From positions 1 through 40,547 of IMG/VR virus record IMGVR_UViG_3300004369_000042: a stretch of DNA of 40,547 bases, one strand, 5' to 3'. Source of the stretch: a virus. Taxonomy: Duplodnaviria > Caudoviricetes. Of this stretch, positions 3,115 to 27,115 are shown piece by piece. The translations under genes were made by a program, and so were the position numbers. The first letter of the stretch is position 1. Every line of letters starts with the position of its first letter. The notes below the pieces were generated by a model. That model searched no databases. It saw only the letters and a list, made by a program, of their open reading frames with translations, and had not been told where the DNA came from.

Positions 3115-3342
3115 ATGATGACTACTTTTACATTTGTAAAAGCAACTGGATCGGATGCTCTGGCCAAACAGGCCAGAGCTATCCTCAATATCGTTGAAGC
3201 TAAATCTGTAATTAGTAAGGATGACTTGCTAGATCAGATTGAGTTAGACGTGAAATCAAAACAAAAGGCCGAAAGGTTGCTGTCATACTATAAAGGACAG
3301 TTGATCTCTGAAGGCTATATGGAAGAGAGAAAACATGGCTAA
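3115..3342 (+). CDS. small putative winged-helix DNA-binding protein
   Basis: Paralogous to the C-terminus of 1446..1952 (AKQA...KQ...R...YY(K/R)GxLI). Confidence 0.65.
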   Translation: MMTTFTFVKATGSDALAKQARAILNIVEAKSVISKDDLLDQIELDVKSKQKAERLLSYYKGQLISEGYMEERKHG

Positions 3343-4177
3343 TGCACGTGGTAAAAAGGTGGATACTACCTATCTTAGTATTAATCAGGCAGAGGAGCGT
3401 GGTTTCCTACACAGGGACTATATTGCTCACTGTCTTCGTTGGTCTCATGTAGTCAAGTATCTTGGCACAAGCATGAGATATAAATCAGCTCGCGTCCTTG
3501 ACGTAGGCTGCGGCAAAGAGATGCCTCTTGCCAAGTTGCTGCATTCATCTCGTATGGGTACAGCATGGTATGGAGCCGTTGATATGGTTCCATTGGTCAC
3601 ACCAGACCAGTTCAAAAATGCATCATGGAAGCCACATAAACTATGGGGCAAGACTGATGTCTGCACTATCACCGAAGAAGAAATGGAAGCCAAGCCGAAC
3701 GTGATCGTCTGCTTTGAAGTAGCTGAACACGTCGAGCCTGACCATTGCCGTCGGATGCTGGCAAAGTTCTATGATTTGCTTGAAGATGACGGTCGTGTCT
3801 TCTTGTCTACACCTTGTTACGACGAACACGTTGGAGCGGCTGCCAATCATGTCAATGAGATGACTTATCAAGCTTTTGGGGCTACACTCGAGGATACAGG
3901 TTTTCGTGTCGAGGGTCATTGGGGTACCTTTGCTTCAATGAAAGACTATAAAGATGAACTCACTCCTGCGCAGCGAGAGGTTTGGGATCAGTTACGTGAC
4001 TATTATGACACAAACTACCTGTCAACTGTACTGGCACCATTGGTACCTCAACACAGTCGCAACGTTTTGTGGCAGCTTAAAAAAGGTCCACCATCTGAAA
4101 AGAGACTATTCCCTAATCTACGCGACGTTGAAGGTCGTTGGGGTTCATCTGAAGAATGGGAAAAGCTATGTCCTTAA
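3335..4177 (+). CDS. class I SAM-dependent methyltransferase
   Basis: VLDVGCG motif I, CFEVAEHV, FLSTP; no DNA-MTase catalytic motif (PC or DPPY type) recognised in the expected context. Confidence 0.85.
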   Translation: MANARGKKVDTTYLSINQAEERGFLHRDYIAHCLRWSHVVKYLGTSMRYKSARVLDVGCGKEMPLAKLLHSSRMGTAWYGAVDMVPLVTPDQFKNASWKPHKLWGKTDVCTITEEEMEAKPNVIVCFEVAEHVEPDHCRRMLAKFYDLLEDDGRVFLSTPCYDEHVGAAANHVNEMTYQAFGATLEDTGFRVEGHWGTFASMKDYKDELTPAQREVWDQLRDYYDTNYLSTVLAPLVPQHSRNVLWQLKKGPPSEKRLFPNLRDVEGRWGSSEEWEKLCP

Positions 4178-4575
4178 TGACAGACATTGCTGAATTTCAC
4201 GCTAAGTTCGGTCTTCAGTACGACGGTTCGCCGCGCGTGCTGGAGCCCGAGCTCCGTGGCTTTCGCATTAAATTCATGCAAGAAGAGCTCAATGAATATG
4301 CTGTGTCACAGACAAAAGCTGACGAGCTAGACGCTTTGGTTGATCTAGTTTATGTGGCTTTAGGTACAACATATATCCAGGGATTCGATTTTCAAGCTGC
4401 ATGGGACAGAGTTCATGCTGCAAACATGGCTAAAGTAAGAGCCGAGTCTGCTGACCAATCAAAACGAAGTTCAGCTTTTGACGTTGTCAAGCCTGAAGGC
4501 TGGGTTGCACCAGACTTAACAGACTTAGTAGGGGAGGAGCAACGCTCCTTGTTTGACAATGATCATAATTCTTGA
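4177..4575 (+). CDS. MazG-like all-alpha dNTP pyrophosphatase (putative dCTPase/dUTPase)
   Basis: EELNEY...DELDALVDLVYVALG...ANMAK; TAATG coupling with the upstream stop. Confidence 0.8.
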   Translation: MTDIAEFHAKFGLQYDGSPRVLEPELRGFRIKFMQEELNEYAVSQTKADELDALVDLVYVALGTTYIQGFDFQAAWDRVHAANMAKVRAESADQSKRSSAFDVVKPEGWVAPDLTDLVGEEQRSLFDNDHNS

Positions 4576-5455
4576 TGGTCCTGACGGTACAGGCAAAACC
4601 ACACTTGGACATGAAATCTGCAAACAAACTGGGGCAAAGTATCTGCATCTTACTTACAGATGGAAAGACAAAATCTTTGACTACCACACAGCAGCCATTA
4701 GGTGGGCAGCAAGACAAACATGCCCAGTTGTCATTGACAGGTGGTGGCCATCAGAAGCGGTCTATGCCAAAGCTTTTCGAGGCGGCAGTACATGGCCTTT
4801 GCAAGGACGTATGTGCGAAAGAGTAGCTAAAAAATTTGGCGTGGTCTACGTGTTCTGCCTTCCGGATGACGTACAGTCGGCAGTCGCAAACCACGCCGAG
4901 TTAAAGCAGCATAGGGAGGAAATGTATGATGACATTGCTGCAGTGGTTGATCTTTATCTTAAACTATGGCGTGGCGAAAGTACACACCAAGATAAAGGTC
5001 AATACATTGATCAACTAATTCGTACCGGTGGTATCAACGATCATAAAGATAAGATCTTGTATACCATTTCGGATTGGGGTCACGCTATGGATTTATTCAT
5101 TGAGCGTGTTGTAACAATGGCTGGCCTATGGCGTAGCTTGCAATTCCAACCAGCTTTACATTTTGATAATTGGAATATTACAGGTCATATTACTGAAGCT
5201 AGATATTTAATGGTATCTGATTCTAATCAGCATAAAAACCTGTGGCCTCATTATCAATATGACGAAGCAATAGAATTGACTGCCAAGCTGCATGAGCTTA
5301 ACTTACCAGAATCTTTGTTTATGTGGAACACTGTTGATGACGACCATTTTACAGACCTTATGTCTGCTAAAAACTTTGATCGTGTGCTGCATACAAAAGA
5401 CTTGCTCAAACCAGAAGCCGATTTAGTGGAGACATTTAAACATGTTATTCGATAA
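4559..5455 (+). CDS. dNMP (thymidylate-like) kinase with C-terminal extension
   Basis: IIILDGPDGTGKTT P-loop and VVIDRWW motif. Confidence 0.8.
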   Translation: MIIILDGPDGTGKTTLGHEICKQTGAKYLHLTYRWKDKIFDYHTAAIRWAARQTCPVVIDRWWPSEAVYAKAFRGGSTWPLQGRMCERVAKKFGVVYVFCLPDDVQSAVANHAELKQHREEMYDDIAAVVDLYLKLWRGESTHQDKGQYIDQLIRTGGINDHKDKILYTISDWGHAMDLFIERVVTMAGLWRSLQFQPALHFDNWNITGHITEARYLMVSDSNQHKNLWPHYQYDEAIELTAKLHELNLPESLFMWNTVDDDHFTDLMSAKNFDRVLHTKDLLKPEADLVETFKHVIR

Positions 5456-6209
5456 CACAATCAACAATGAATGGCTAAAAGCCATCAAATGGGTCAGGGA
5501 TTATGGCAGCATTACTAAACCACGCGGCAAAAAGATACGTGAAATAGTAGGCTTACAAACCAAAGTTGATATGGCAGATCCAATCTTATCTGTACCAGAA
5601 CGTGCCCTTGGTTATAAATTTATGGCAGCAGAAGCTGCATGGATATTATCTGGTGACAATCGTGTATCAACGATTGCGCCATTTAGTAAAGTTATATCCC
5701 AGTTTAGTGATGATGGTATTACTTATCACGGTGCTTATGGGCCCAAGATACGTGATCAGTTACACTATGCTGCTGATAATTTGGCAAAAGATCCTGATTC
5801 AAGACAAGCTGTAATCAATATATGGCGTGAGAACCCTCGCAACAGTCGAGATATTCCATGCACATTATCAGTTCAATTCCTAATACGGAATGAAGAGCTA
5901 CATGTCATTGATACTATGCGTAGCTCAGATCTATGGCTTGGTTGGCCATATGACATTTTTAATTTCAGTATGCTTGCTCGATACTTGATCTTGTATGCTG
6001 ATTTAGATATTGGTCTCGGCAAGATTTATCTTAATGCAGGATCAGCTCATATTTATAAGCCACAGTGGGAAGCTTGCGATGACATTACAGAGCTATATCC
6101 TAGTGGGATTAAAAACACGCGTAGTCCTTTAGAGTTTAAGCATAAGGACTGTGATGCACTTGTGGACGCTTTGTGGGAGGCAGCTCATGACGAAACATTC
6201 GCGCCCTAG
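5442..6209 (+). CDS. thymidylate synthase family enzyme, predicted dCMP methylase/hydroxymethylase
   Basis: DSRQAVINIW, DIPCT (Cys140), MRSSDLWLGWPYD (Asp171 at the E. coli Asn177 position), GSAHIY. Confidence 0.85.
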   Translation: MLFDNTINNEWLKAIKWVRDYGSITKPRGKKIREIVGLQTKVDMADPILSVPERALGYKFMAAEAAWILSGDNRVSTIAPFSKVISQFSDDGITYHGAYGPKIRDQLHYAADNLAKDPDSRQAVINIWRENPRNSRDIPCTLSVQFLIRNEELHVIDTMRSSDLWLGWPYDIFNFSMLARYLILYADLDIGLGKIYLNAGSAHIYKPQWEACDDITELYPSGIKNTRSPLEFKHKDCDALVDALWEAAHDETFAP

Positions 6210-6759
6210 TGTTGATGATTATTTTTTGTCTATGGCAGAGCTTGTTGCAACTCGCAGTACGTGCTGCCGCCGCAATGTTGGCTGTATTTTGGTGGATAGT
6301 CGTAACCATGTATTGGCTACTGGTTACAACGGTGTGGCTGCTGGCGTGGCCCATTGTATTGACACTCCTTGCCCTGGGGCTAACTTGCCTAGTGGTACTG
6401 GACTCGATAAATGCGAAGCCATACACGCAGAACAAAATGCTATTCTTCAATGTAAAGATGTGGCGGCTATTAAAACGGCGTATATCACGACAAGTCCGTG
6501 CCATACGTGTACGAAACTCTTGATGAATACAGGTTGTAAACGTATTGTGTTTATCAAAGCTTATACGGATGAAAGTCCTAAAAAATTATGGAAAGGAGAA
6601 TGGATAGAACATGGCACAAATGAGTATGTTCCTACCGAAAGCAGACTGGAGACCTCCAAAAGAGTTACCAGATCTAAGCGCGGCAAAGATAATCAGTCTA
6701 GACGTCGAAACTTCGGATCCGCACTTATTAACTTCTGGTCCCGGAGGGGTTCGACATGA
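6187..6759 (+). CDS. dCMP deaminase family protein
   Basis: RSTC, ATGYNG, HAEQNA and SPCHTC zinc motifs; start 6187 follows GGGAGG. Confidence 0.9.
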   Translation: MTKHSRPSVDDYFLSMAELVATRSTCCRRNVGCILVDSRNHVLATGYNGVAAGVAHCIDTPCPGANLPSGTGLDKCEAIHAEQNAILQCKDVAAIKTAYITTSPCHTCTKLLMNTGCKRIVFIKAYTDESPKKLWKGEWIEHGTNEYVPTESRLETSKRVTRSKRGKDNQSRRRNFGSALINFWSRRGST

Positions 6760-8491
6760 CGGAAAACTCGTCGGGATTTCTATTGCGACGGATACTGGTT
6801 TTGTGGGGTACTTCCCCATCGCTCACGAGGGAGGAGATAACCTTGACAGTGGATCAGTCCTTAACTGGGCCCGAGCAACCCTCGGCGGCAGACAAGATAA
6901 GGTTGGAGCAAACCTGCTCTACGATCTTGAATGGCTTAGGGCGGCAGGGGTGGAAGTTAAAGGGCGCCTCAGAGATATTCAAGTTTCAGAACCACTCTTA
7001 GATGAAGAGCGTGATGGTGGCTACAGCTTATCTAACCTGTCTAAGTATTATCTAAACCAGGATAAAGATGAAACTTTATTGCGTGATGCAGCAAGGTCTT
7101 TTGGAGTTGATCCCAAGGGTGGGCTATGGAAACTACCAGCTAGATATGTTGGTCCGTATGCAGAGGCAGATGCAGCTCTTCCACTGGAAATATGGAAGCA
7201 TCAAGAGAAGCTATTAAGAGAGCAAGGCTTATGGGATATATTTGAGCTTGAGTCTAGACTACTCAATGTCATACTAGACATGAGGTTCAAAGGCGTCCGT
7301 ATCGATATAGATAAAGCCGAGCAGCTTAATGATAAATGCTTGACTGATGAAGCTCAGTTGCTTACCAGTATAAGAAAAGAATGTGGTACCGTTGTTGAAC
7401 CCTGGTCTGCTGACGAGCTATCAAAAGCTTTTGACAACTTAGGTATATGGTATCCACGTACTAATCGTGGTAACCCATCTTTTACTAGTGATTGGCTTAA
7501 CAGTCATGAGCATCCGTTTGCTAAGAGTATTGCTGAGTGGCGTAAAATAAATAAAATGAGGCGTGACTTCATTGAAGGCATATGTCTCAAGCAGCAACAC
7601 AATGGTCGTATCCATGCTCAGTTCCATTCATTGCGCAAAGACTCTGATGGTACTCGAACAGGAAGGTTTAGTTCATCAACACCTAATCTGCAGCAGATAC
7701 CAGCTCGTGATGAATACTGGGGTCCGTTGATTCGTAGTTTGTTTTTACCTGATGAAGGTAAGCAGTGGGCTTGTCTTGACTATAGCCAACAAGAACCAAG
7801 GGTTTTGATGCACTATGCTTTTCTTCGTGCTTTAAGAGGTGCTGAAGATGCTGTCAACCAATATAGAAATAATGCTGATACAGATTTCCACCAAGTTGTA
7901 GCTGATATGGCTGGCATCAGTCGTAAGCAAGCAAAGACTATTAACCTTGGTATGTTTTACGGCATGGGTATCTATAAGCTCAGTCAAGAATTAGGCATGG
8001 AACAATTTGAAGCCAAGCCTATTTTTGAGCAGTATCATAGTCGAGTTCCGTTTGTGCGTCAGCTTGCTCATGAGTGTACACGTGCTGCCAACCAAAAAGG
8101 CTATATTAAAACCCTGTTAGGTAGGCATAGACACTTTAATTTGTTTGAACCAGCTGATAGTAGAAACACTTGGCCAAACAGAGAAACACCATTGAACAGA
8201 GATGCTGCAATGGAAGTATGGAATGATAGACCTTTACGTCGATCATTCACGCATAAAGCTCTGAATGCTTTGATACAAGGCAGCAGTGCTGATATGACAA
8301 AGAAAGCTATGCTGGATTTATATGATGAAGGTGTAACAGCACATATTACGGTGCATGATGAGCTTGATTTTTCCGTTGAAGATCGTGTACAAGCCGATAC
8401 TTACCGTGATATAATGGAAAATTGTGTCAATCTTGAATTACCACTCAAGGTTGATGTAGAAATCGGTCCTAACTGGGGCGAAATCAAATAG
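6611..8491 (+). CDS. polA: family A DNA polymerase with 3'-5' exonuclease
   Basis: Exo I LDVET, Exo III YAEAD, TGRFSS, motif A DYSQQEPR, motif B KTINLGMFYG, motif C VHDE. Confidence 0.95.
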   Translation: MAQMSMFLPKADWRPPKELPDLSAAKIISLDVETSDPHLLTSGPGGVRHDGKLVGISIATDTGFVGYFPIAHEGGDNLDSGSVLNWARATLGGRQDKVGANLLYDLEWLRAAGVEVKGRLRDIQVSEPLLDEERDGGYSLSNLSKYYLNQDKDETLLRDAARSFGVDPKGGLWKLPARYVGPYAEADAALPLEIWKHQEKLLREQGLWDIFELESRLLNVILDMRFKGVRIDIDKAEQLNDKCLTDEAQLLTSIRKECGTVVEPWSADELSKAFDNLGIWYPRTNRGNPSFTSDWLNSHEHPFAKSIAEWRKINKMRRDFIEGICLKQQHNGRIHAQFHSLRKDSDGTRTGRFSSSTPNLQQIPARDEYWGPLIRSLFLPDEGKQWACLDYSQQEPRVLMHYAFLRALRGAEDAVNQYRNNADTDFHQVVADMAGISRKQAKTINLGMFYGMGIYKLSQELGMEQFEAKPIFEQYHSRVPFVRQLAHECTRAANQKGYIKTLLGRHRHFNLFEPADSRNTWPNRETPLNRDAAMEVWNDRPLRRSFTHKALNALIQGSSADMTKKAMLDLYDEGVTAHITVHDELDFSVEDRVQADTYRDIMENCVNLELPLKVDVEIGPNWGEIK

Positions 8492-17590: not shown

Positions 17591-19285
17591 TTAAACCCCT
17601 AATCTCACTCTCTGTGTTTCCGCTGGATAAGGGCTACCATCTCTGTAATTACTAGTACCTAGCTTGTTGTTTGAGTTACGGCCTGCTGCAAACACCATGC
17701 CATTCTTAAGTCGTACAAAAGCGCCATACTCAGAAGTGTAGCCGTGAGCTGTCAAACCCGCCGGTTCCCATAATATATTACCAGAAGAATCTCTTGGTTT
17801 GCGCATATCCGCTTCAAAACTAGCATAAGCAACACCCGTATTTCCAGTAGCTTTTGTAGCAGACGGGTGATAAAAGCCTAAAGGTATAGTCCAACGTTGA
17901 AAACTAGTTACCTGGCTTGAATTACCACTTCCGTAACCGCCATAAACGCCGGTGGAATATACATGACCATCGTTAGCTAGCATTGCCGTTGTATGATAAT
18001 GAGCAGAACCATTATATGCTCCTGTACAGGCTAAGTCAATAATATCCCACTTATTCCCAATATACTGGGAAGCTAACCAGCCTTGGCCCGTGCATAGTTG
18101 CATGTGTGCAGCTGATGTATTACCTGCGCCACCTTGTCCTTGGCCATTGTAACCACCGACAAACCACAAACGATTTTGATCATCCATAGCCCAGCACGAA
18201 CCATATTCTTGGCCGCATTGAATTTTTGTAAAAGCAGAAACTCCCGCTGGAAAAGCTATCTGCGTAAAATTACTATAGTTTCCTGTGCCGTTATACAAGG
18301 CATATTGGCCCCCATAACCTGTACCAAACAAGCGGCCATCTTTAAGAAGTACAAATGTCACGCCGGCCCGAGAGCTTCCACAAGGAGCAATAGCCATGTA
18401 GTCAGTTGGTGATAAACCAGAGGGAAGTCCGGTACAAGGTGTCAGTCTAGACTGGTTACTGGTATTACCTACGCCGAGCTTACCCCAACTGTTTTGGCCA
18501 CAAGCCCAAAGAGTACCGTCATCTTTAAGAGCATAAACAGCTTGGTAATCACCGCCGCCTGCCGCAAAGTCATATATATTAGATGATAATGTACCATCAT
18601 TAAAATACATACGAACAGGTTGTGAGTAGTTACTTGTATTATTCTGTCCTAGCTGTCCATAACCGTTATAACCCCAAGCCCATAGCTGCCCTGATTTAGT
18701 GAGTGCATAGAGAGAATTAGACGCGGTAGGAAAACCCCTAGTAATATCAACTTTAGTAATAATCTGGTTTCGGTCAGAGGACCTAGGACCTATGCTCGTG
18801 GTATTTAAATTTTGTAGATATTGAATGCTACTTGTATTACCATGTCCTAGCTGACCGTGGCCGTTATATCCCCAAACAGATACATCACCAGCATCTGTTA
18901 AAACCATTGTGTTGTCATAAGCCTGGCAGAGCGCAATGGGCTTACCAACCAAGGATCTTGTATAACCCGTACCTGTCCAATGCGTTATAGTTTTCCAAGT
19001 GTCAATATTGGCGGATTGACTATATTGAGCCAAGGTGTTATTACTGTGGCTGCCAGTCATATACACCTGGCCATCTTTCATAAGGAAAGCCTGGTGATAG
19101 TAAGTAATATCGGTTCTATTTCCTACTTGGGGTAGTTTATGGCCAGGCATGCGTTTCCACATGGCTGACTCATTTGCCATAGCGACACAAAACTCGTGGT
19201 CACCAAGCTGACCGCCACCACCACTGACACCGCCGCCTGCAGATAATACCTGTTTAGGTAGGTCTTGCTTGATAACATCGTTCAT
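17591..19285 (-). CDS. RCC1/BLIP-II repeat beta-propeller, putative receptor-binding protein
   Basis: Repeats of the type GxLWAWGYNGYGQLG; lies in the tail module. Confidence 0.8.
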   Translation of the reverse strand: MNDVIKQDLPKQVLSAGGGVSGGGGQLGDHEFCVAMANESAMWKRMPGHKLPQVGNRTDITYYHQAFLMKDGQVYMTGSHSNNTLAQYSQSANIDTWKTITHWTGTGYTRSLVGKPIALCQAYDNTMVLTDAGDVSVWGYNGHGQLGHGNTSSIQYLQNLNTTSIGPRSSDRNQIITKVDITRGFPTASNSLYALTKSGQLWAWGYNGYGQLGQNNTSNYSQPVRMYFNDGTLSSNIYDFAAGGGDYQAVYALKDDGTLWACGQNSWGKLGVGNTSNQSRLTPCTGLPSGLSPTDYMAIAPCGSSRAGVTFVLLKDGRLFGTGYGGQYALYNGTGNYSNFTQIAFPAGVSAFTKIQCGQEYGSCWAMDDQNRLWFVGGYNGQGQGGAGNTSAAHMQLCTGQGWLASQYIGNKWDIIDLACTGAYNGSAHYHTTAMLANDGHVYSTGVYGGYGSGNSSQVTSFQRWTIPLGFYHPSATKATGNTGVAYASFEADMRKPRDSSGNILWEPAGLTAHGYTSEYGAFVRLKNGMVFAAGRNSNNKLGTSNYRDGSPYPAETQRVRLGV

Positions 19286-21102: not shown

Positions 21103-23624
21103 TATCTCACTCCTTCAAACAGCTTATTACCACCACCATAAGGGATTTCCCTTGAAGGCGGCATATAAAAACGCTGGTTATTTTCAGTCATTATACGCTG
21201 TTCTAGTCGAGAAAGATACCCCGGATTTACCATTTCTTGCAGCTGGTACAAAAATAAATAATCTAGTGCCATCCGAGTATAGAACAGGTTAATAAAGGGG
21301 GTGTTGTCTTTTACCATTTGTAGCGCTGTAGCGCCAAAGTCTTCACCCCTGGTTGCTTTAGTCCAAAGTTCAGCTATGGTATCTACTTGACCAAGTGTTG
21401 GACCTGCAGCAGTAGATAGCGCTGATCGGCCAAATCTGCTAAACTCGCCAAATAAGAAGTCTCCATAAATACCAAGCCCGCCGCCTTGTGTTAGAGCGGC
21501 CATAATTAGTTTAGCATTTTGGGCATTATCATCGGTAAAGGTTCTTGGTGAACGACCTTTGAGAACATCCTTCATATACATGGCGCCATAGCCAAACACA
21601 GTACTCATGGTGATTAGAGATACTAATCCAACAATATCCGCTTTACCGTCCATCTGACCGGCAATCTCACGACCCATACCACGTCTAATCATTGTAATCG
21701 GGAATGATTTAAACTGCATGATATGACGATACATTTCACCTGTAGCCGTACCTGCTTCAGTACCCCTGTTCATGATGGCACGTTCAGCAGCACCAGGCAT
21801 AGGAATACCGTGGTCTGCTCTATCAATAAAAAACGTATCGAGCATTGAAACAAGATCATCTCTAGCTTCATTAATCTGACGCGCGGTCTTAGCAGGCTTA
21901 CCTTTCATTGCCAAATAAGCAGCAACTTCAGCATCACCTAATTCCTCAATGGCATCTGAAACCATATACTTATTGCCATCAGAAAGGTTTTTAACACCAT
22001 GCCGAGAATAAACAGACCATTCAGCATCACCAATACCGTACTGACGTAGAACATTCTGGAGCCGTGGTCCTAGGTCCTTATATGCCATAGTGGCAGACTC
22101 GGCTAGATGGTTACTCATCATGAGACCCATACCCGTACGATGCGAGTCGTTCCACCAGGTCATAAGATTAAGTTTAAAGAATTTTTGCTGCAGCTTAGCC
22201 CCAGTTCCTGCAATATGGTCATTAGCATGGAACCTTGACATGAGGTCCCCTGTAATACCATCAAAACCAATACCCATAGATCTTGCTATAGTTTTTTGTT
22301 CTGCATTTCCTCGGCCACGGAATAAATTACTAAAGGCATTAGTATAAGCAGCAAATACGTTTTTACCTTGATACCTTAATTCCGCTGCCTGGTTAGCAAT
22401 ATCTGTGATAGACGAAATAGTAGCACCACCAAGTTTAGAAACATTGGCAATCATTCTTAAAGTAGCATTAATCTTAGCAGTTCTCATATTAACAGGGATA
22501 CGTGTAGTACCATCAAGCTCTGCTAAAAGGTATTTCAGCTCATTGTTATTTAACTGGTCTGTTACTTTTATGTTACCTGCTTTTTGCGCTTCTGTAAGAT
22601 AACGCTTTTTAAGCTTATCAAGCATGCTTACAGGATTAGTACCAAGGCCTCTCATTAGAGCCGTATTACGAGCTAGGTGCTCTAACCCATGAACAATGCC
22701 TTCTCGTAGGTCTCCTGCGCCAAAGACCTTGTTGTATTCCATAAAGGACTCTGCATCTTTAAAATGCAGCACACGCTCTTGACTAGCTTTTTTAGCCAGA
22801 TTAGAGGGGCCCTTAAATCCATACAAGTGATTTGACTGTGTTGATTCAGGCTTAAATCTACGGTGTACACCTGATGCCAGGCCTTTATAAGCGCCCTCTA
22901 AAAACTTGCGTTTATCAGCACCTTTAAATGTTGTATCATCTAGCTTATCCCAGACAAAATTAATCCATTCGTCCATAGTAGCTTTACGCAAACGCATCAT
23001 GTCGTGTGTTTGACGCATAATATACCCAGGCATAGACCTGATATATGAACCTGCCATATTAGAGTTTTTAACGGCGAGCTCTTGTATTTCATGAATAACT
23101 TCTGCAATACGCTTAGCAGCAGCATTACCTGTAATACCAGGTTGACCTCCAGGCTTGATTTCCCAAAGCTCTTTTGCAATCATGTCATCAAACTTACCAC
23201 TATTAAAGTACGCTATATCTCCGTTCTTTTCTAAACGGTCAATAAGCTTACCTATATACTTATTGGTAAGAGCTTTACCCTGAGCATCAATGCTCAATTT
23301 TGATTTAAACTTAGATTTTATTGATCCACCCATGAGAGCTTTTAAGCCTTCATAAGGATTATCAAAGGCGCTAATCTGTTGAATAGCACGCATTTCGACC
23401 ATAGCGTTAATGGCACGATTACGCTTTTCAATAGTTGCTGCTAGCACAGTATCATCAAAACGCTCTTTAATATGTTGAGCTAGAGCGTTATCGATATTGT
23501 CTATATTTTTATTGTTCGTAATGAAATCATCAATTTCTTCCAGCATTTCCATGGCTGCATCATCAGTGATACTTCCATTTTTATTTGCTGCCTTAATAAT
23601 TCCAATACATTTTTGAATACTCAT
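21102..23624 (-). CDS. internal virion (ejection) protein
   Basis: Large helical protein at the internal-core position; ATGA overlap gives start 23624. Confidence 0.75.
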   Translation of the reverse strand: MSIQKCIGIIKAANKNGSITDDAAMEMLEEIDDFITNNKNIDNIDNALAQHIKERFDDTVLAATIEKRNRAINAMVEMRAIQQISAFDNPYEGLKALMGGSIKSKFKSKLSIDAQGKALTNKYIGKLIDRLEKNGDIAYFNSGKFDDMIAKELWEIKPGGQPGITGNAAAKRIAEVIHEIQELAVKNSNMAGSYIRSMPGYIMRQTHDMMRLRKATMDEWINFVWDKLDDTTFKGADKRKFLEGAYKGLASGVHRRFKPESTQSNHLYGFKGPSNLAKKASQERVLHFKDAESFMEYNKVFGAGDLREGIVHGLEHLARNTALMRGLGTNPVSMLDKLKKRYLTEAQKAGNIKVTDQLNNNELKYLLAELDGTTRIPVNMRTAKINATLRMIANVSKLGGATISSITDIANQAAELRYQGKNVFAAYTNAFSNLFRGRGNAEQKTIARSMGIGFDGITGDLMSRFHANDHIAGTGAKLQQKFFKLNLMTWWNDSHRTGMGLMMSNHLAESATMAYKDLGPRLQNVLRQYGIGDAEWSVYSRHGVKNLSDGNKYMVSDAIEELGDAEVAAYLAMKGKPAKTARQINEARDDLVSMLDTFFIDRADHGIPMPGAAERAIMNRGTEAGTATGEMYRHIMQFKSFPITMIRRGMGREIAGQMDGKADIVGLVSLITMSTVFGYGAMYMKDVLKGRSPRTFTDDNAQNAKLIMAALTQGGGLGIYGDFLFGEFSRFGRSALSTAAGPTLGQVDTIAELWTKATRGEDFGATALQMVKDNTPFINLFYTRMALDYLFLYQLQEMVNPGYLSRLEQRIMTENNQRFYMPPSREIPYGGGNKLFEGVR

Positions 23625-26600
23625 CCGGCACCTCTCACGCATACGGCTGCAGCTTTAGCAGCCTCATACAAGTCATTAGCTAGTTCAATATCGGCTTTAC
23701 CATCAGCTTCAATTGCCTCAAGCTCTTTGGTTAAAGCTGCGACATACTTAGGTTCAACGTTTGCTAATTCAGCTTTTATCATTTCATTTAATTCTTGTAT
23801 AGTGTTTTCCTGCTCTTTAAGCTCTTGACTCTTATTAAATTTCAAAGTTTCTTGACGCTGATTAGGATCTACTGCTAAATCAGGATCTGTATCATTAATA
23901 TCAGAAACCGCGTTTGATACCTGTTTATGGTATTTTTGTCCTATTTTCAAAGCTTGCTGCTTATCCATCATTTTAGGAACAGCTTCACCAGGCCTTAGAG
24001 CGTCTAGCTCCATGACCATCTTACCACCTTTACTAATTTGAACGACTTCTCTAATAACAAAAGTTGTATCATGCGGCAAAATAATTTCTGTTTCGCCTGT
24101 CTTAAAAGTCCAGGCTTTACCTTCTCCTGATGCTAGACCTTTCATACCTTTAGGTAGATTAATCTTAAGCATGATAGAGTCAGAATTCATAAAGCCACTA
24201 GCTGATGAACGACTAACACCTGTAGAGGTAAAACCAGCTAGTTTAACAGCTCCACCCCTCATAGCTTTTGCAGTAGCAATATCTGTAGTGTTTGACAAGT
24301 TAATGTTTTTAACACCATTAAAAGCAGTAAACGGAGTACCGCCTCGCCAAACTTGTACCTGTTGGTCAAGAGAGCCTTTTTTAAGAATAAGCTCTTGAAG
24401 CTTATTTCCGTAAGCCCTGATTACACCAACAGCATCCTCATAATTTTTAACAATTGGTTTGCCATCAAGATATTGAGATACAGACTTAGCACGACTAATA
24501 ATATCTGCTTCAGACATTTTGTAGCTTGGATTAGTAACTACACCATCAATATTCCTCAAAGCCCGATTAAGCCAAGAATAACCGCTTCCAGTATAACTTT
24601 TAATAAAAGCTGCTTCTGCTTCATCAAAGCCAGCATTTTGTGCCTTATTAAGGTTAGCTACGGCTTTCTTAGCGGAGTGCTGACTGTTAGCAACGATAGT
24701 CCCTTTCTTTGTAGAGACTTGCTGAGCAACACGCCCAAAGTCCCCTACTTCTTGTAGGGCCTGACGCCTGTTTACAAGAAATGATCTTAGAGCATCGGCT
24801 TCTTTTTTAGGCAAGCCAACAATCTGGATGATTTCATTAATTTCTTTTTGATCGGTCTGGAATATACGCTTAGAAGTTTCTAGAGTTTTTGCCCTAAACT
24901 CGTCCTCTGTAAGTTCCATGGCTTCATAGATCTTAGCAGCAGTTGGATTTTTCTTAGGATCTTTAAGAGTCTGTAGTTCAGGAATATCAACACCTTTAAG
25001 CCAGTCATCAGGCTTAAGATCACCTTGTGCTCGATACAACAAAGCACCGCCTGGATCAATACGGAAAACCGTACCGTCAGGTGCCAGCATTAGATTAAAA
25101 TTAGGTGCATTACCAACAACGTCCCAGTTGCCTAGATACATATCAACCAAAAAGTCATCAGCAAACGCTTGCCTTACTTCTTTAGGAAGCTTAGCAAACT
25201 CGTCAGGTGTAATCATTTTGGCGCCATCGACAATTTGAGAAGCTACACCAACAATATCCCCATTTGAATTAGTTACTAGACGAGTCTCAGGGAAAGCGAC
25301 TCCAAACATTTTATATAGTGTTGCTGCCAAAAATTCATTTTTGGCAATATTTGGATCTTTAGGATATTTGACGTAGTATTTTTTACCTGTTGCCGCATCT
25401 GTATAGGTACCACCTTTTTGTGTACCCATTTGATCGCCTGTCTGCTGCAGGTTTTCATCAAGCAACTGTTCGTCAAAGGCAATTTTTTTACCGTCTCCAA
25501 GTAAAGTACCCTCATCAAACTGAGCATATTCATCAATAACTGCTTGTTTACCTGCTTTAATATTATCGGCAAAAGCAGTGATATGAGGATCACCTTGAAA
25601 TAGTTTTAAAGCATCACCAGGATTAGCTAGTACAACGTCATTCTGGTTCATCTTAGGATTGAACTCAGCGTTTGTGACGTCAATAACGTGGTGAATAGAT
25701 CCTTCTTCTAATTTTATCGACGCAGAATATTTAACATCCGCCTGCGCCATGTCCACGCCGTGCATGAGCATTGCCATGTGAGCCTTCTCACCGATCGAGA
25801 CAGGGTCACCAAAGTTAGTCGCAACCTGATCATCACCAAAAAGACGTAGAGTTCCATCTTTATTTTTAACAAGGACATATTGACCATCTGTTGTTTTAAT
25901 CCTAAAAGCTATTTTGTTTTGTATTTTTTGTGCTGCTGCTTCAGCTACGGCCTCTTGAAACTCGTCACTAGTAAAAGCAGTTTTAACTTTAACACCACTA
26001 AGCTTAGATGCTTTTTCGCCTTTGTCTACTAGAGCTAAAGATTCGCTAGCATTAGTGTGCGGTTTGTACTCTAAAGTTTCACTTGATTTAACTGGCTTGT
26101 TTGTATCAGCAATTTCTAATTCATCTGAACTACGACTAACTGGCCCAAATTCTGCTGAATCACCACTGTTTGTAGGTACCTCATAAGGTACTTCATCACT
26201 CATATTAGTAATAGGAGTAACTTCTACACTCTGGCCATTTGTTAGCTGGTTTGTTGCTGTATCAAGAGCTTTAGCGTGACGCTTTGCTCGAATATGTTTA
26301 ACGGCATCTATAACAGCTCCACCACCAACGTGTAATCCACCACCTGCGAACGTACCAAATGTAACGTTCATAAATGACTGGAGCAGACCATAGTCTGCCT
26401 GCTCTTGCTGAGCTGCAGCATAGATAGGTACCTCAACAATGGCTGAAGCATACAGGCCACCTAAACCGCCACGCACAAACCTACTACCCGTTTTAGTTGC
26501 CGCCCAGCCAAATTGTCCTGCTAGTTTAGCAGCACCGACGGGAGGAATAAACATGAGCGGCAACGTAACAGGATCAACAAGAGCCATGCCCATTTCTAGG

Positions 26601-27115
26601 CTAAAGCCCTTGACTGATTCCCAACCATACGCTTTATCTAAATTAAATTGAAACTTGATCTCTTCTTTTTTACGTGTATTTAAAATATAAGCTTCAAGAG
26701 AAGATACAGGTTCAGACCACGATAAAGCTCCATCAAGGCCATAACGTTCATTTGCTTCTTCTGGCTCAAGTATCCTGAGTTCATCATCAAACTCAGGATA
26801 TTTCTTTTTAAATTCGTCTGTTGTATAGGGTATGTTTGGAAGGTTATACCTTCCTCTGCCATGCCTGTTAATTCTACGTATGCCTATGGAACGAACACCT
26901 TCATCATAAAGATCTCGTTCAGCCTGTGTTGATGAGCCATAATTTCTTGCACTATTAATTTCAGTCATTCTCGAAAGAGAATTAGTAGCGCCAAATTTCC
27001 AACCACTATCAATTGCAGCATCAGTTACAGCAGAATCATAGGAAGGAATAAGATCCTGGCCTGCTACCTGGAAAAAGCTACTTTGATATGATTTCTTTTT
27101 AGACTTTATATACAT
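23621..27115 (-). CDS. internal virion protein carrying HipA/PI-kinase-like and ADP-ribosyltransferase domains
   Basis: Kinase motifs GTQKGG, YYVK, KNE, GNWDVVG..N, RIDPGG; ART motifs YT..GYSWLNRALR, VWRG, FTST, ETEIILP. Confidence 0.85.
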   Translation of the reverse strand: MYIKSKKKSYQSSFFQVAGQDLIPSYDSAVTDAAIDSGWKFGATNSLSRMTEINSARNYGSSTQAERDLYDEGVRSIGIRRINRHGRGRYNLPNIPYTTDEFKKKYPEFDDELRILEPEEANERYGLDGALSWSEPVSSLEAYILNTRKKEEIKFQFNLDKAYGWESVKGFSLEMGMALVDPVTLPLMFIPPVGAAKLAGQFGWAATKTGSRFVRGGLGGLYASAIVEVPIYAAAQQEQADYGLLQSFMNVTFGTFAGGGLHVGGGAVIDAVKHIRAKRHAKALDTATNQLTNGQSVEVTPITNMSDEVPYEVPTNSGDSAEFGPVSRSSDELEIADTNKPVKSSETLEYKPHTNASESLALVDKGEKASKLSGVKVKTAFTSDEFQEAVAEAAAQKIQNKIAFRIKTTDGQYVLVKNKDGTLRLFGDDQVATNFGDPVSIGEKAHMAMLMHGVDMAQADVKYSASIKLEEGSIHHVIDVTNAEFNPKMNQNDVVLANPGDALKLFQGDPHITAFADNIKAGKQAVIDEYAQFDEGTLLGDGKKIAFDEQLLDENLQQTGDQMGTQKGGTYTDAATGKKYYVKYPKDPNIAKNEFLAATLYKMFGVAFPETRLVTNSNGDIVGVASQIVDGAKMITPDEFAKLPKEVRQAFADDFLVDMYLGNWDVVGNAPNFNLMLAPDGTVFRIDPGGALLYRAQGDLKPDDWLKGVDIPELQTLKDPKKNPTAAKIYEAMELTEDEFRAKTLETSKRIFQTDQKEINEIIQIVGLPKKEADALRSFLVNRRQALQEVGDFGRVAQQVSTKKGTIVANSQHSAKKAVANLNKAQNAGFDEAEAAFIKSYTGSGYSWLNRALRNIDGVVTNPSYKMSEADIISRAKSVSQYLDGKPIVKNYEDAVGVIRAYGNKLQELILKKGSLDQQVQVWRGGTPFTAFNGVKNINLSNTTDIATAKAMRGGAVKLAGFTSTGVSRSSASGFMNSDSIMLKINLPKGMKGLASGEGKAWTFKTGETEIILPHDTTFVIREVVQISKGGKMVMELDALRPGEAVPKMMDKQQALKIGQKYHKQVSNAVSDINDTDPDLAVDPNQRQETLKFNKSQELKEQENTIQELNEMIKAELANVEPKYVAALTKELEAIEADGKADIELANDLYEAAKAAAVCVRGAG

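What the first reader, a model, noticed from the sequence alone, without database searches (positions are those of the whole stretch)
3335..8491. Coupled cassette for a cytosine-modified genome, possibly with dTMP made via 5-methyl-dCMP
Seen: overlapping genes MTase - MazG-like pyrophosphatase - dNMP kinase - TS homologue - dCMP deaminase - PolA. The TS homologue has Cys140 and, 31 residues later, Asp171 (RSSDLWLGWPYD, codon 5952-5954), with PCT rather than PCH. Established: dUMP-specific ThyA has Asn177 31 residues after Cys146, whereas T4 dCMP hydroxymethylase has Asp179 after Cys148, and this residue governs dCMP versus dUMP use. Inference: the enzyme makes 5-methyl- or 5-hydroxymethyl-dCMP, the kinase phosphorylates it, the pyrophosphatase removes dCTP and PolA incorporates the modified base. 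A plain dCMP deaminase would drain the substrate, so the deaminase may prefer 5m-dCMP (giving dTMP without ThyA) or 5hm-dCMP (giving 5hm-dUMP). I see no ThyA/ThyX, DHFR, glycosyltransferase or TET gene.
Basis: partly seen in the sequence, partly recalled or inferred. Interest (0 to 1): 0.85.

Follow-up and report, generated by a model that had tools for sequence, protein, structure and literature searches.

The report
Phage cassette for methylated hydroxymethylcytosine DNA
This phage carries six overlapping genes predicted to replace the cytosine in its DNA with hydroxymethylcytosine, and a methyltransferase that travels with those genes likely caps the new hydroxyl to give a little-studied or new DNA base, which could be tested in a cultured phage that has the same genes.

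Summary
Observation confirmed; interpretation half right. The six overlapping genes, Cys140 and Asp171 are real. So the product is most likely 5hm-dCMP, and the 'dTMP via 5-methyl-dCMP' route, already published for Xp12-type phages, is unlikely here: T4 keeps a plain deaminase beside gp42, and relatives with this cassette carry ThyX or ThyA. The open part is the methyltransferase. All 81 distinct TS homologues aligned from beside it carry the hydroxymethylase signature, over three TS clades; in Xp15 and two contigs a carbamoyltransferase, a known 5hmC O-modifier, fills its slot. It resembles UbiG/HEN1/CmoM O-methyltransferases. Best reading: 5-methoxymethylcytosine replaces C (about 45%). Cultured phage AXL3 has the same five genes in order and restriction-resistant DNA, including to KpnI, which cuts 5mC DNA. 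No enzyme was assayed. This scan reached the same reading earlier on five other genomes.

The parts
3335..4177 (+). Class I SAM-dependent methyltransferase of a phage-restricted family (280 aa); invariant ExxEH (E128, E131, H132), STP and NH motifs; predicted 5hmC O-methyltransferase
   Evidence: Pfam; conservation; AlphaFold pLDDT 91.5; fold; profile hits
4177..4575 (+). PRA-PH/MazG-like dNTP pyrophosphatase, predicted dCTPase/dUTPase (longest ORF from 4156; likely start 4177 overlapping the MTase stop)
   Evidence: substrate inferred by analogy with T4 gp56
4559..5455 (+). dNMP kinase (about residues 1-195) fused to a UDG-superfamily-like domain that is truncated here (matches profile positions 1-65 of 131, lacks the HP motif)
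   Evidence: thymidylate-kinase fold, Z 13.6; UDG-like domain
5442..6209 (+). Thymidylate-synthase homologue with Asp137, Cys140, Asp163, Asp171: predicted dCMP hydroxymethylase
   Evidence: (best solved relative MilA, E 4e-24); signature from PMC6400193 and PMC13326640
5850..5852 (+). Codon of Asp137 (three residues before Cys140; T4 gp42 Asp145, E. coli ThyA Leu143)
   Evidence: sequence and alignment
5952..5954 (+). Codon GAC of Asp171 (E. coli ThyA Asn177, T4 gp42 Asp179)
6187..6759 (+). dCMP deaminase (HAE...PCxxC; domain ends near 6620, tail overlaps PolA)
6611..8491 (+). Family A DNA polymerase with 3'-5' exonuclease; 45-48% identical to those of HTVC027P-type phages

Best explanation
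The cassette is predicted to replace cytosine with a 5-hydroxymethylcytosine derivative before replication, and its methyltransferase likely methylates the hydroxyl to give 5-methoxymethylcytosine. Steps: the pyrophosphatase would turn dCTP (and dUTP) into monophosphates; the TS homologue would make 5hm-dCMP; the kinase would phosphorylate it and PolA would incorporate it; the deaminase would be an ordinary one that sends spare dCMP to dUMP for the host's ThyA or ThyX; the UDG-like domain would remove uracil or deaminated modified C, though the copy in this genome looks disabled. Shown: gene content, order, residues and co-occurrence. Inferred: every activity. Odds by step: dCMP substrate 0.95, hydroxymethyl product 0.85, ordinary deaminase 0.75, O-methylation of the 5-hydroxymethyl group 0.5. 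Whether the methyl is added to the nucleotide or to DNA is open; the nucleotide level is slightly favoured.
For: (1) Asp at Cys-3, Asp169 and Asp177 positions in the window and in 81 of 81 non-redundant TS homologues aligned from MTase-bearing loci, as in T4 gp42; Xp12 has Asn at Cys-3. PMC6400193 shows that T4 Asp145 activates the water and names it a signature; PMC13326640 repeats it (passages). (2) No DHFR in the record, whereas Xp12 has one next to its TS and deaminase. (3) MTase linkage: TS present in 82 of 104 loci of close MTase relatives and 95 of 114 loci of distant ones, 92 of them readable as DxxC/D/D; 31 of the 32 distant loci with at least 5 kb on both sides hold a TS. The partners fall in three TS clades, one 50% identical to T4 gp42. 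(4) Slot exchange: Xp15, L052 and L060 have a NodU carbamoyltransferase in the MTase position; the L052 and L060 TS enzymes (49% and 47% identical to the window's) nest among MTase-linked ones; such enzymes carbamoylate the 5hmC hydroxyl (PMC8670742, passages). (5) The MTase profile's best matches include O-methyltransferases: UbiG in 87 of 87 members and Hen1 in 43 of 87, all below cut-off; fold matches CmoM Z 18.6, ChlM 18.4, HEN1 17.4; ExxEH in 214 of 214 members aligns with HEN1's metal-binding motif. (6) AXL3 has the five genes in the same order; its DNA resisted 35 G/C-site enzymes and was cut by 2 A/T-only ones (PMC7504290). KpnI (13 sites in AXL3) cuts 5mC Xp12 DNA completely but not 5hmC T4gt DNA (PMC7653180 supplement). 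(7) ThyX or ThyA in cassette-bearing relatives. (8) One MTase is fused to the pyrophosphatase (P0376).
Against: No activity was measured and no member of this TS clade has a published product that I found. The Ser/Thr that PMC6400193 pairs with Asp145 is Gly97 here (Gly in 66 of the 81). The MTase matches are remote (14-19% identity); N-methyltransferases score as well (toxoflavin N1-MTase Z 17.4; lysine and coclaurine N-MTases head), and UbiG shares ExxEH, so the motif is not specific. One well-flanked MTase locus has no TS within 8 kb (L321), and one member is fused to a C5 DNA methylase (P0387). Some distant loci also hold a 5-hydroxymethyl DNA-kinase-like gene (cluster of 6) or sugar-nucleotide genes (L121, L122, L137), so there the MTase may act on another group. 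Loci are redundant and are not independent events. The AXL3 KpnI result rests on the paper's text (the supplement legend names only BamHI, XhoI, TasI, Tru1I), used different enzyme preparations from the Xp12/T4gt study, and does not separate 5hmC from a methylated 5hmC. The deaminase clade also serves a 5mC-type TS (S28C10, 64% identical), and 5mC selectivity is reported to be polyphyletic.
Confidence: 0.45

Rival explanations
1. 5hmC replaces C as above, but the methyltransferase modifies another atom or molecule: N4 of the modified cytosine, a group added to 5hmC by another enzyme, or an RNA 3' end as HEN1 does.
For: N-methyltransferases match as well as O-methyltransferases; HEN1 motif shared; L321 lacks a nearby TS; HMUDK-like and sugar genes in some distant loci.
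Against: Near-strict linkage to hydroxymethylase-type TS in three clades and exchange with a known 5hmC O-carbamoyltransferase; no other transferase found in this 99% complete record; Hen1 model score 12.9 against a cut-off of 340.
Confidence: 0.3
2. One reading: the TS makes 5-methyl-dCMP, C is replaced by 5mC, and a 5mC-selective deaminase supplies T without ThyA (Xp12 route).
For: Asp171; no ThyA or ThyX in the record; the route is real in Xp12-type phages, and 5 of 7 tested TS partners of active deaminases made 5mdCMP (bioRxiv 2024.12.05.627091); the window's deaminase is 64% identical to one beside a 5mC-type TS.
Against: Asp137 instead of Asn/Val/Leu; TS 28% identical to Xp12's and in another clade; no DHFR; deaminase 28% identical to Xp12's; AXL3 resists KpnI and Eam1105I, whose sites are cut (KpnI completely, AhdI partly or completely) in Xp12 DNA; ThyX/ThyA in relatives; leaves the MTase unexplained.
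Confidence: 0.07
3. The deaminase prefers 5hm-dCMP/dCTP, so T is also partly or wholly replaced by 5hmU (or its methyl ether): a doubly modified genome.
For: Published phage deaminases of this Pfam family convert 5hmdC to 5hmdU; A/T-only enzymes MluCI and MseI also cut 5hmU SP8 DNA, so the AXL3 digests do not exclude it; this genome's UDG-like domain is truncated.
Against: The seven 5hmC-active deaminases in that study lay beside TS predicted to make 5mdCMP; ThyX follows the deaminase directly in L067 and ThyA is present in L328, whose deaminase is 55% identical to the window's.
Confidence: 0.08
4. The methyltransferase is a SAM-dependent dUMP methylase that completes dTMP synthesis after the deaminase.
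For: Would explain the lack of ThyA/ThyX in this record; a Cys follows STP in 170 of 214 members.
Against: No Cys is invariant (44 of 214 lack it), and C5 methylation needs a Cys nucleophile (established knowledge); no m5U or m5C methyltransferase among the 50 best fold matches shown; redundant with ThyX/ThyA in AXL3, L029, L137, L328; linkage is to hydroxymethylase-type TS.
Confidence: 0.02

Closest known systems
T4 5hmC pathway (gp56 dCTPase, gp42 dCMP hydroxymethylase, gp1 kinase, cd deaminase, then glucosyltransferases)
   Same: Same logic and same TS signature (Asp at Cys-3, D169, D177); plain deaminase alongside
   Different: TS only 23% identical and in another clade; PRA-PH-type pyrophosphatase, TMK-type kinase with UDG-like domain, PolA, 40-kb podophage; a methyltransferase where T4 has glucosyltransferases
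5-carbamoyloxymethylcytosine system (Yang et al. 2021, PMC8670742); Xanthomonas phage Xp15 cassette
   Same: Transferase - PRA-PH - kinase - TS(Asp) - deaminase in the same order in Xp15, L052, L060; deaminase 60% identical to Xp15's
   Different: NodU carbamoyltransferase replaced by a class I SAM methyltransferase; the Xp15 base itself is not reported in the passages I searched
Xp12-type 5mC replacement with 5mC-selective deaminase (mSCD; bioRxiv 2024.12.05.627091)
   Same: TS with N177D, dCMP deaminase, PRA-PH and PolA as neighbours; this neighbourhood is described in that preprint
   Different: Xp12 has Asn at Cys-3, a DHFR and an HhH glycosylase, and no such MTase was annotated in its record
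Stenotrophomonas phage AXL3 gp31-gp27 and Pseudoxanthomonas phage PW916
   Same: Same five genes in the same order; TS 39-46%, MTase 30%, deaminase 48-60% identical; AXL3 DNA resists G/C-site enzymes
   Different: Siphoviruses, PolA not adjacent, own ThyX; base never identified, and both papers read the block as ordinary dTMP synthesis
MilA CMP 5-hydroxymethylase (mildiomycin)
   Same: Best solved relative of the TS by sequence, E 3.8e-24, with D-x-x-C-T and Asp at 177
   Different: Acts on the ribonucleotide in an antibiotic pathway
HEN1 / UbiG / CmoM O-methyltransferases
   Same: Class I fold, ExxEH and STP motifs
   Different: 14-19% identity, far below family cut-offs; own N-terminal HRDY..H.RW helix; found almost only in phage DNA (4 full-length hits in 185,579 prokaryote genomes; the two I read, L157 and L159, hold the cassette)

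Membership tests
dCMP-specific TS homologue | Asp at the E. coli Asn177 position, catalytic Cys 31 residues before | tested here: met
   Cys140, Asp171
dCMP hydroxymethylase (functional class) | Asp/Glu three residues before the catalytic Cys (T4 Asp145) | tested here: met
   Asp137; criterion from PMC6400193, PMC13326640
dCMP hydroxymethylase (functional class) | Tyr96 equivalent and Ser/Thr94 two residues before it | tested here: inconclusive
   Tyr99 present, Gly97 in place of Ser; the carbamoyltransferase-linked L052 and L060 enzymes also have Gly
dCMP hydroxymethylase (functional class) | Makes 5hm-dCMP from dCMP and methylene-THF | not testable with these tools
   needs an assay
T4 gp42 clade | Groups with gp42 in a TS tree | tested here: not met
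   23% identity, separate branch in a FastTree of 97 sequences, midpoint-rooted
Xp12-type 5mC system | Non-acidic residue at Cys-3 | tested here: not met
   Asp137 against Asn in Xp12
Xp12-type 5mC system | DHFR beside the TS | tested here: not met
   0 matches to PF00186 in the 99% complete record, control rang in 10 of 14 genomes; Xp12 DHFR
Xp12-type 5mC system | 5mC-selective deaminase | tested here: inconclusive
   28% identical to Xp12's, 64% to that of S28C10; trait is polyphyletic with no published signature in the sections read
5-hydroxy-dCMP synthase (RB69/DLP3) | Asn at the E. coli Asp169 position | tested here: not met
   Asp163 (criterion)
Canonical ThyA | Leu143, PCH, Asn177 | tested here: not met
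   DIPCT and Asp171; compare the true ThyA of L328
DNA C5-cytosine methyltransferase | PF00145 match and invariant catalytic Pro-Cys | tested here: not met
   no PF00145 hit; Cys after STP missing in 44 of 214
Hen1 | Metal-binding ExxEH motif | tested here: met
   214 of 214 members; aligns with HEN1 CLEVIEH; also present in UbiG
Hen1 | Fourth metal ligand His860 | tested here: inconclusive
   invariant His172 lies 40 residues after His132 (45-60 in HEN1 proteins) but the printed alignment did not reach it
Hen1 | TIGR04074 cut-off | tested here: not met
   12.9 bits against 340
UDG superfamily (kinase C-terminal domain) | Profile match with G-x-x-P...F, N and HP motifs | tested here: inconclusive
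   relatives: PF03167 in 14 of 85 at E up to 0.05, best 2.4e-7, type-4 UDG structures E 0.005, HP motif in 60 of 67; the window's copy covers only profile positions 1-65 of 131

The most novel reading that the evidence does not exclude
A widespread phage methyltransferase family (323 clusters at 50% identity with E below 1e-30) converts 5-hydroxymethylcytosine into 5-methoxymethylcytosine, a DNA base absent from my literature searches, which fully replaces C in many aquatic and soil phages including cultured AXL3 and PW916. It would be a SAM-dependent, probably metal-assisted 5hmC O-methyltransferase, a sugar-free cap on 5hmC and a new enzyme for labelling 5hmC.
Probability: 0.45. Interest if true: 0.8.

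Novelty: new variant of a known kind. Interest (0 to 1): 0.6.

Why it matters
If right, it adds a new natural DNA base and a new 5hmC-modifying enzyme, explains the unidentified restriction resistance of AXL3, and shows that the first slot of this five-gene cassette is an exchangeable 5hmC cap (methyl, carbamoyl, none). A SAM-dependent 5hmC O-methyltransferase could be a tool for marking 5hmC in sequencing, as the carbamoyltransferase became. The decisive test is cheap because two cultured phages carry the genes.

Tried and rejected
Palindrome and dinucleotide counts and the substitution spectrum against the 94% identical contig L007 gave nothing diagnostic. phmmer of the single MTase against PDB sequences found nothing. 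A by-eye UDG resemblance in the N-terminus of P0254 was not supported (E 0.058). No genomic context was found for the C5-methylase fusion P0387. mostly repeated (20 new loci used). In one search the Xp12 cell for the Ser94 position (G) is misaligned; one search shows Ser. In one search my 'fam' label was too strict and is ignored; L339-L379 (41 partial matches, E 6e-10 or weaker) were left out of the count. PMC12629253, PMC13229309 and PMC9414467 (passages) gave no identification of the base; PMC13229309 only lists O-methyltransferases among neighbours of phage dioxygenases. Literature searches for the proposed base or enzyme (listings only, top 13-30 shown) returned no report of it. Iyer et al. 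2013 (NAR), which I recall cataloguing phage TS-homologue neighbourhoods, is not held and may already note this linkage; supplements of the bioRxiv mSCD preprint (sequences, Supplementary Fig. 1E) are closed and could show whether this deaminase clade was tested. No complex prediction was run.


Full report
Setting. The window is a whole IMG/VR virus record of 40,547 bases, rated 99% complete. It is a podophage: replication genes on the + strand (PolA 45-48% identical to HTVC027P-type enzymes; Pam3 gp32-34-like genes, primase, UvrD, SNF2), structural genes on the - strand (capsid 50-58% identical to HTVC010P-type and to MW202510). The host is unknown.

Observation. No ThyX or DHFR is in the record, and family scans of the larger ORFs show no second TS, glycosyltransferase or TET. 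A contig 94% identical at DNA level (L007) has the same residues and the same shortened kinase, so these are not assembly errors.

What the TS homologue makes. Asp at the ThyA 177 position means dCMP (PMC8670742 section 11). Two further published positions sort the product. PMC6400193 (passages) shows that T4 Asp145, three residues before the catalytic Cys, activates the water, that D145N is inactive, and that ThyA has Leu there; PMC13326640 (passages and section 28) uses the same position and adds D169N as the mark of 5-hydroxy-dCMP synthases. The window has Asp137 and Asp163, hence hydroxymethylase. In an alignment of 97 TS sequences all 81 from MTase-bearing loci read D/D/D at these three positions, as does T4 gp42; Xp12, the verified 5-methyl-dCMP maker, has Asn at Cys-3 and groups apart with S28C10 (Val). 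Xp12 also has a DHFR next to its TS and deaminase, as a methylase that oxidises folate needs; the window has none. The best solved relative is the hydroxymethylase MilA. Against: the Ser94 partner is Gly97 here, and no enzyme of this clade has been assayed to my knowledge.

The deaminase. Relatives with this cassette carry their own dUMP methylase: ThyX in AXL3 (gp50), L029, L137 and directly behind the deaminase in L067, and a canonical ThyA (LSPCH, Asn) in L328, whose TS and deaminase are 54-55% identical to the window's. Most relatives show none within the fetched DNA and would use the host enzyme (inference). The 5mC-to-T route is real and published (bioRxiv 2024.12.05.627091, sections 5, 20 and passages): the TS + deaminase + PRA-PH + PolA neighbourhood is described there, and the seven deaminases active on 5hmdC lay beside TS predicted to make 5mdCMP. 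The window's deaminase is 28% identical to Xp12's, 60% to AXL3's and Xp15's, and 64% to that of S28C10, which has a 5mC-type TS; selectivity is polyphyletic, so sequence cannot settle it. I put an ordinary deaminase at about 0.75.

The methyltransferase. It is the best conserved and least explained gene: 1217 proteins at E up to 0.001, 323 clusters at 50% identity with E below 1e-30, but only 4 full-length hits in 185,579 prokaryote genomes, of which the two I read are phage-like cassettes. Linkage: of 65 loci found with the TS, 52 hold the MTase; of the other 13, five are cut short upstream, two are Asn-type dUMP enzymes, two have a carbamoyltransferase, three have a PLP-enzyme block and one has no transferase seen. 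Of 104 loci found with close MTase relatives, 82 hold a TS; the 22 without are short on at least one side. Of 114 loci found with a profile of distant members, 95 hold a TS, 92 readable as D/D/D and 3 truncated or unreadable; of the 32 with at least 5 kb on each side 31 hold a TS, and L321 does not. These loci are redundant, but the partners fall in three TS clades, one 50% identical to T4 gp42, and in different gene orders, so the tie is to the chemistry and not to one operon. The slot is exchangeable: cultured phage Xp15 and contigs L052 and L060 have a NodU carbamoyltransferase in the same place, and such an enzyme is shown to carbamoylate the 5hmC hydroxyl in ssDNA and 5hm-dCTP (PMC8670742, passages). 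S28C10 and HTVC200P/119P have no transferase there. The AlphaFold model (pLDDT 91.5, 87 sequences) is a class I fold closest to CmoM (Z 18.6, rmsd 3.8, 208 aligned), ChlM (18.4, 2.7, 187), HEN1 (17.4, 2.6, 185) and a toxoflavin N-methyltransferase (17.4, 3.4, 190). ExxEH is in 214 of 214 members and aligns with the HEN1 motif that binds Mg to deprotonate a hydroxyl (the residue mapping assumes an 8-residue tag offset in the PDB chain). No Cys is invariant, which argues against C5 methylation. The protein is mildly acidic (pI 6.1), heads an operon of nucleotide enzymes and is fused to the pyrophosphatase in P0376, which leans to a nucleotide substrate; the fusion to a C5 DNA methylase in P0387 leans the other way. 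O-methylation of 5hmC is the simplest reading, at about 0.5.

Evidence from a cultured phage. AXL3 has MTase - pyrophosphatase - kinase - TS - deaminase in the same order. PMC7504290 (passages) reports that 35 enzymes with G/C in their sites failed and only TasI and Tru1I cut; the base is unknown. In PMC7653180 (passages and supplement 2, parts 1-2 of 3) KpnI cuts 5mC Xp12 DNA completely and not 5hmC T4gt DNA; AXL3 has 13 KpnI sites and is reported uncut, which fits 5hmC or bulkier and not 5mC. XmnI cuts T4gt partly while its isoschizomer PdmI (21 sites) did not cut AXL3, a weak hint of more than bare 5hmC. Caveats: different preparations, no KpnI lane named in the AXL3 supplement, and A/T-only enzymes also cut 5hmU DNA, so T is not proven canonical.

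Kinase and UDG-like domain. Residues 1-195 have a thymidylate-kinase fold. Most relatives add about 130 residues that match type-4 UDG weakly and keep an HP motif in 60 of 67. The window's copy matches only the first half of that profile (32.5 bits against 80.9 for AXL3, which was not in the profile) and is probably inactive. Xp12 has an HhH glycosylase in the comparable place; I infer that each system carries repair for its own deaminated base.

Novelty. Cytosine replacement through a TS homologue is known, as is the 5mC-to-T route. I found no report of a 5hmC O-methyltransferase or of 5-methoxymethylcytosine in phage DNA in five searches (listings only); Iyer et al. 2013 was not available and subscription papers are not covered. 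This scan's own earlier notes reached the same reading on five other genomes; they are not independent evidence, and my reading was stated before the first look-up. Verdict: new variant of a known kind, interest 0.6; the prediction is specific and directly testable on AXL3 or PW916 DNA.

Noticed in passing
window 23621-27115 (-): 1164-aa virion-region protein with a C-terminal ADP-ribosyltransferase domain (PF03496, E 6e-17, residues 831-1039), recalling T4 Alt-type injected proteins (recalled, not tested).
   Followed up: no
window 5168-5455; L007 6519-6806: The UDG-like domain of the kinase is eroded and shortened in this genome and its 94% identical relative, partly also in L019, while intact in most others.
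   Followed up: partly
L066-L068, between pyrophosphatase and kinase: Same TS clade without the MTase but with two unknown proteins (phrog_13881-like, about 335 aa; about 390-440 aa) and a PLP-dependent enzyme, ThyX after the deaminase in L067: a candidate third cytosine hypermodification.
   Followed up: partly
L154 3568-7504 (Xanthomonas phage Xp15): A cultured phage with carbamoyltransferase - pyrophosphatase - kinase - TS(D/D/D) - deaminase; predicted to carry 5-carbamoyloxymethylcytosine; not mentioned in PMC8670742.
   Followed up: partly
L001, L002, L155 (HTVC200P, HTVC119P, uvMED S28C10): T7-like pelagiphages with kinase + hydroxymethylase-type TS and no transferase nearby (HTVC200P/119P), and a relative with a 5mC-type TS (S28C10): cultured SAR11 phages predicted to carry modified C.
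   Followed up: partly
L228-L238 group (e.g. L236 4064-5314, L238 2929-3744): Distant MTase loci that also hold a 5-hmdU-DNA-kinase-like gene (cluster of 6) and a SAM-synthetase-like gene (cluster of 9) near a hydroxymethylase-type TS.
   Followed up: no
P0387, P0376: MTase family members fused to a C5 DNA cytosine methylase (737 aa) and to the PRA-PH pyrophosphatase (496 aa); no context found for P0387.
   Followed up: partly
L121, L122, L127, L137: T4-like contigs with gp42-like TS directly followed by the MTase and deaminase, flanked by cupin, cytidylyltransferase, UDP-glucose dehydrogenase and epimerase genes.
   Followed up: no
window 17591-19285 (-): 564-aa protein with RCC1-like repeats among the tail and lysis genes.
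   Followed up: no
whole window: GATATC is under-represented (observed/expected 0.19), GGATCC 0.35; CpG 0.77. No control was run.
   Followed up: no
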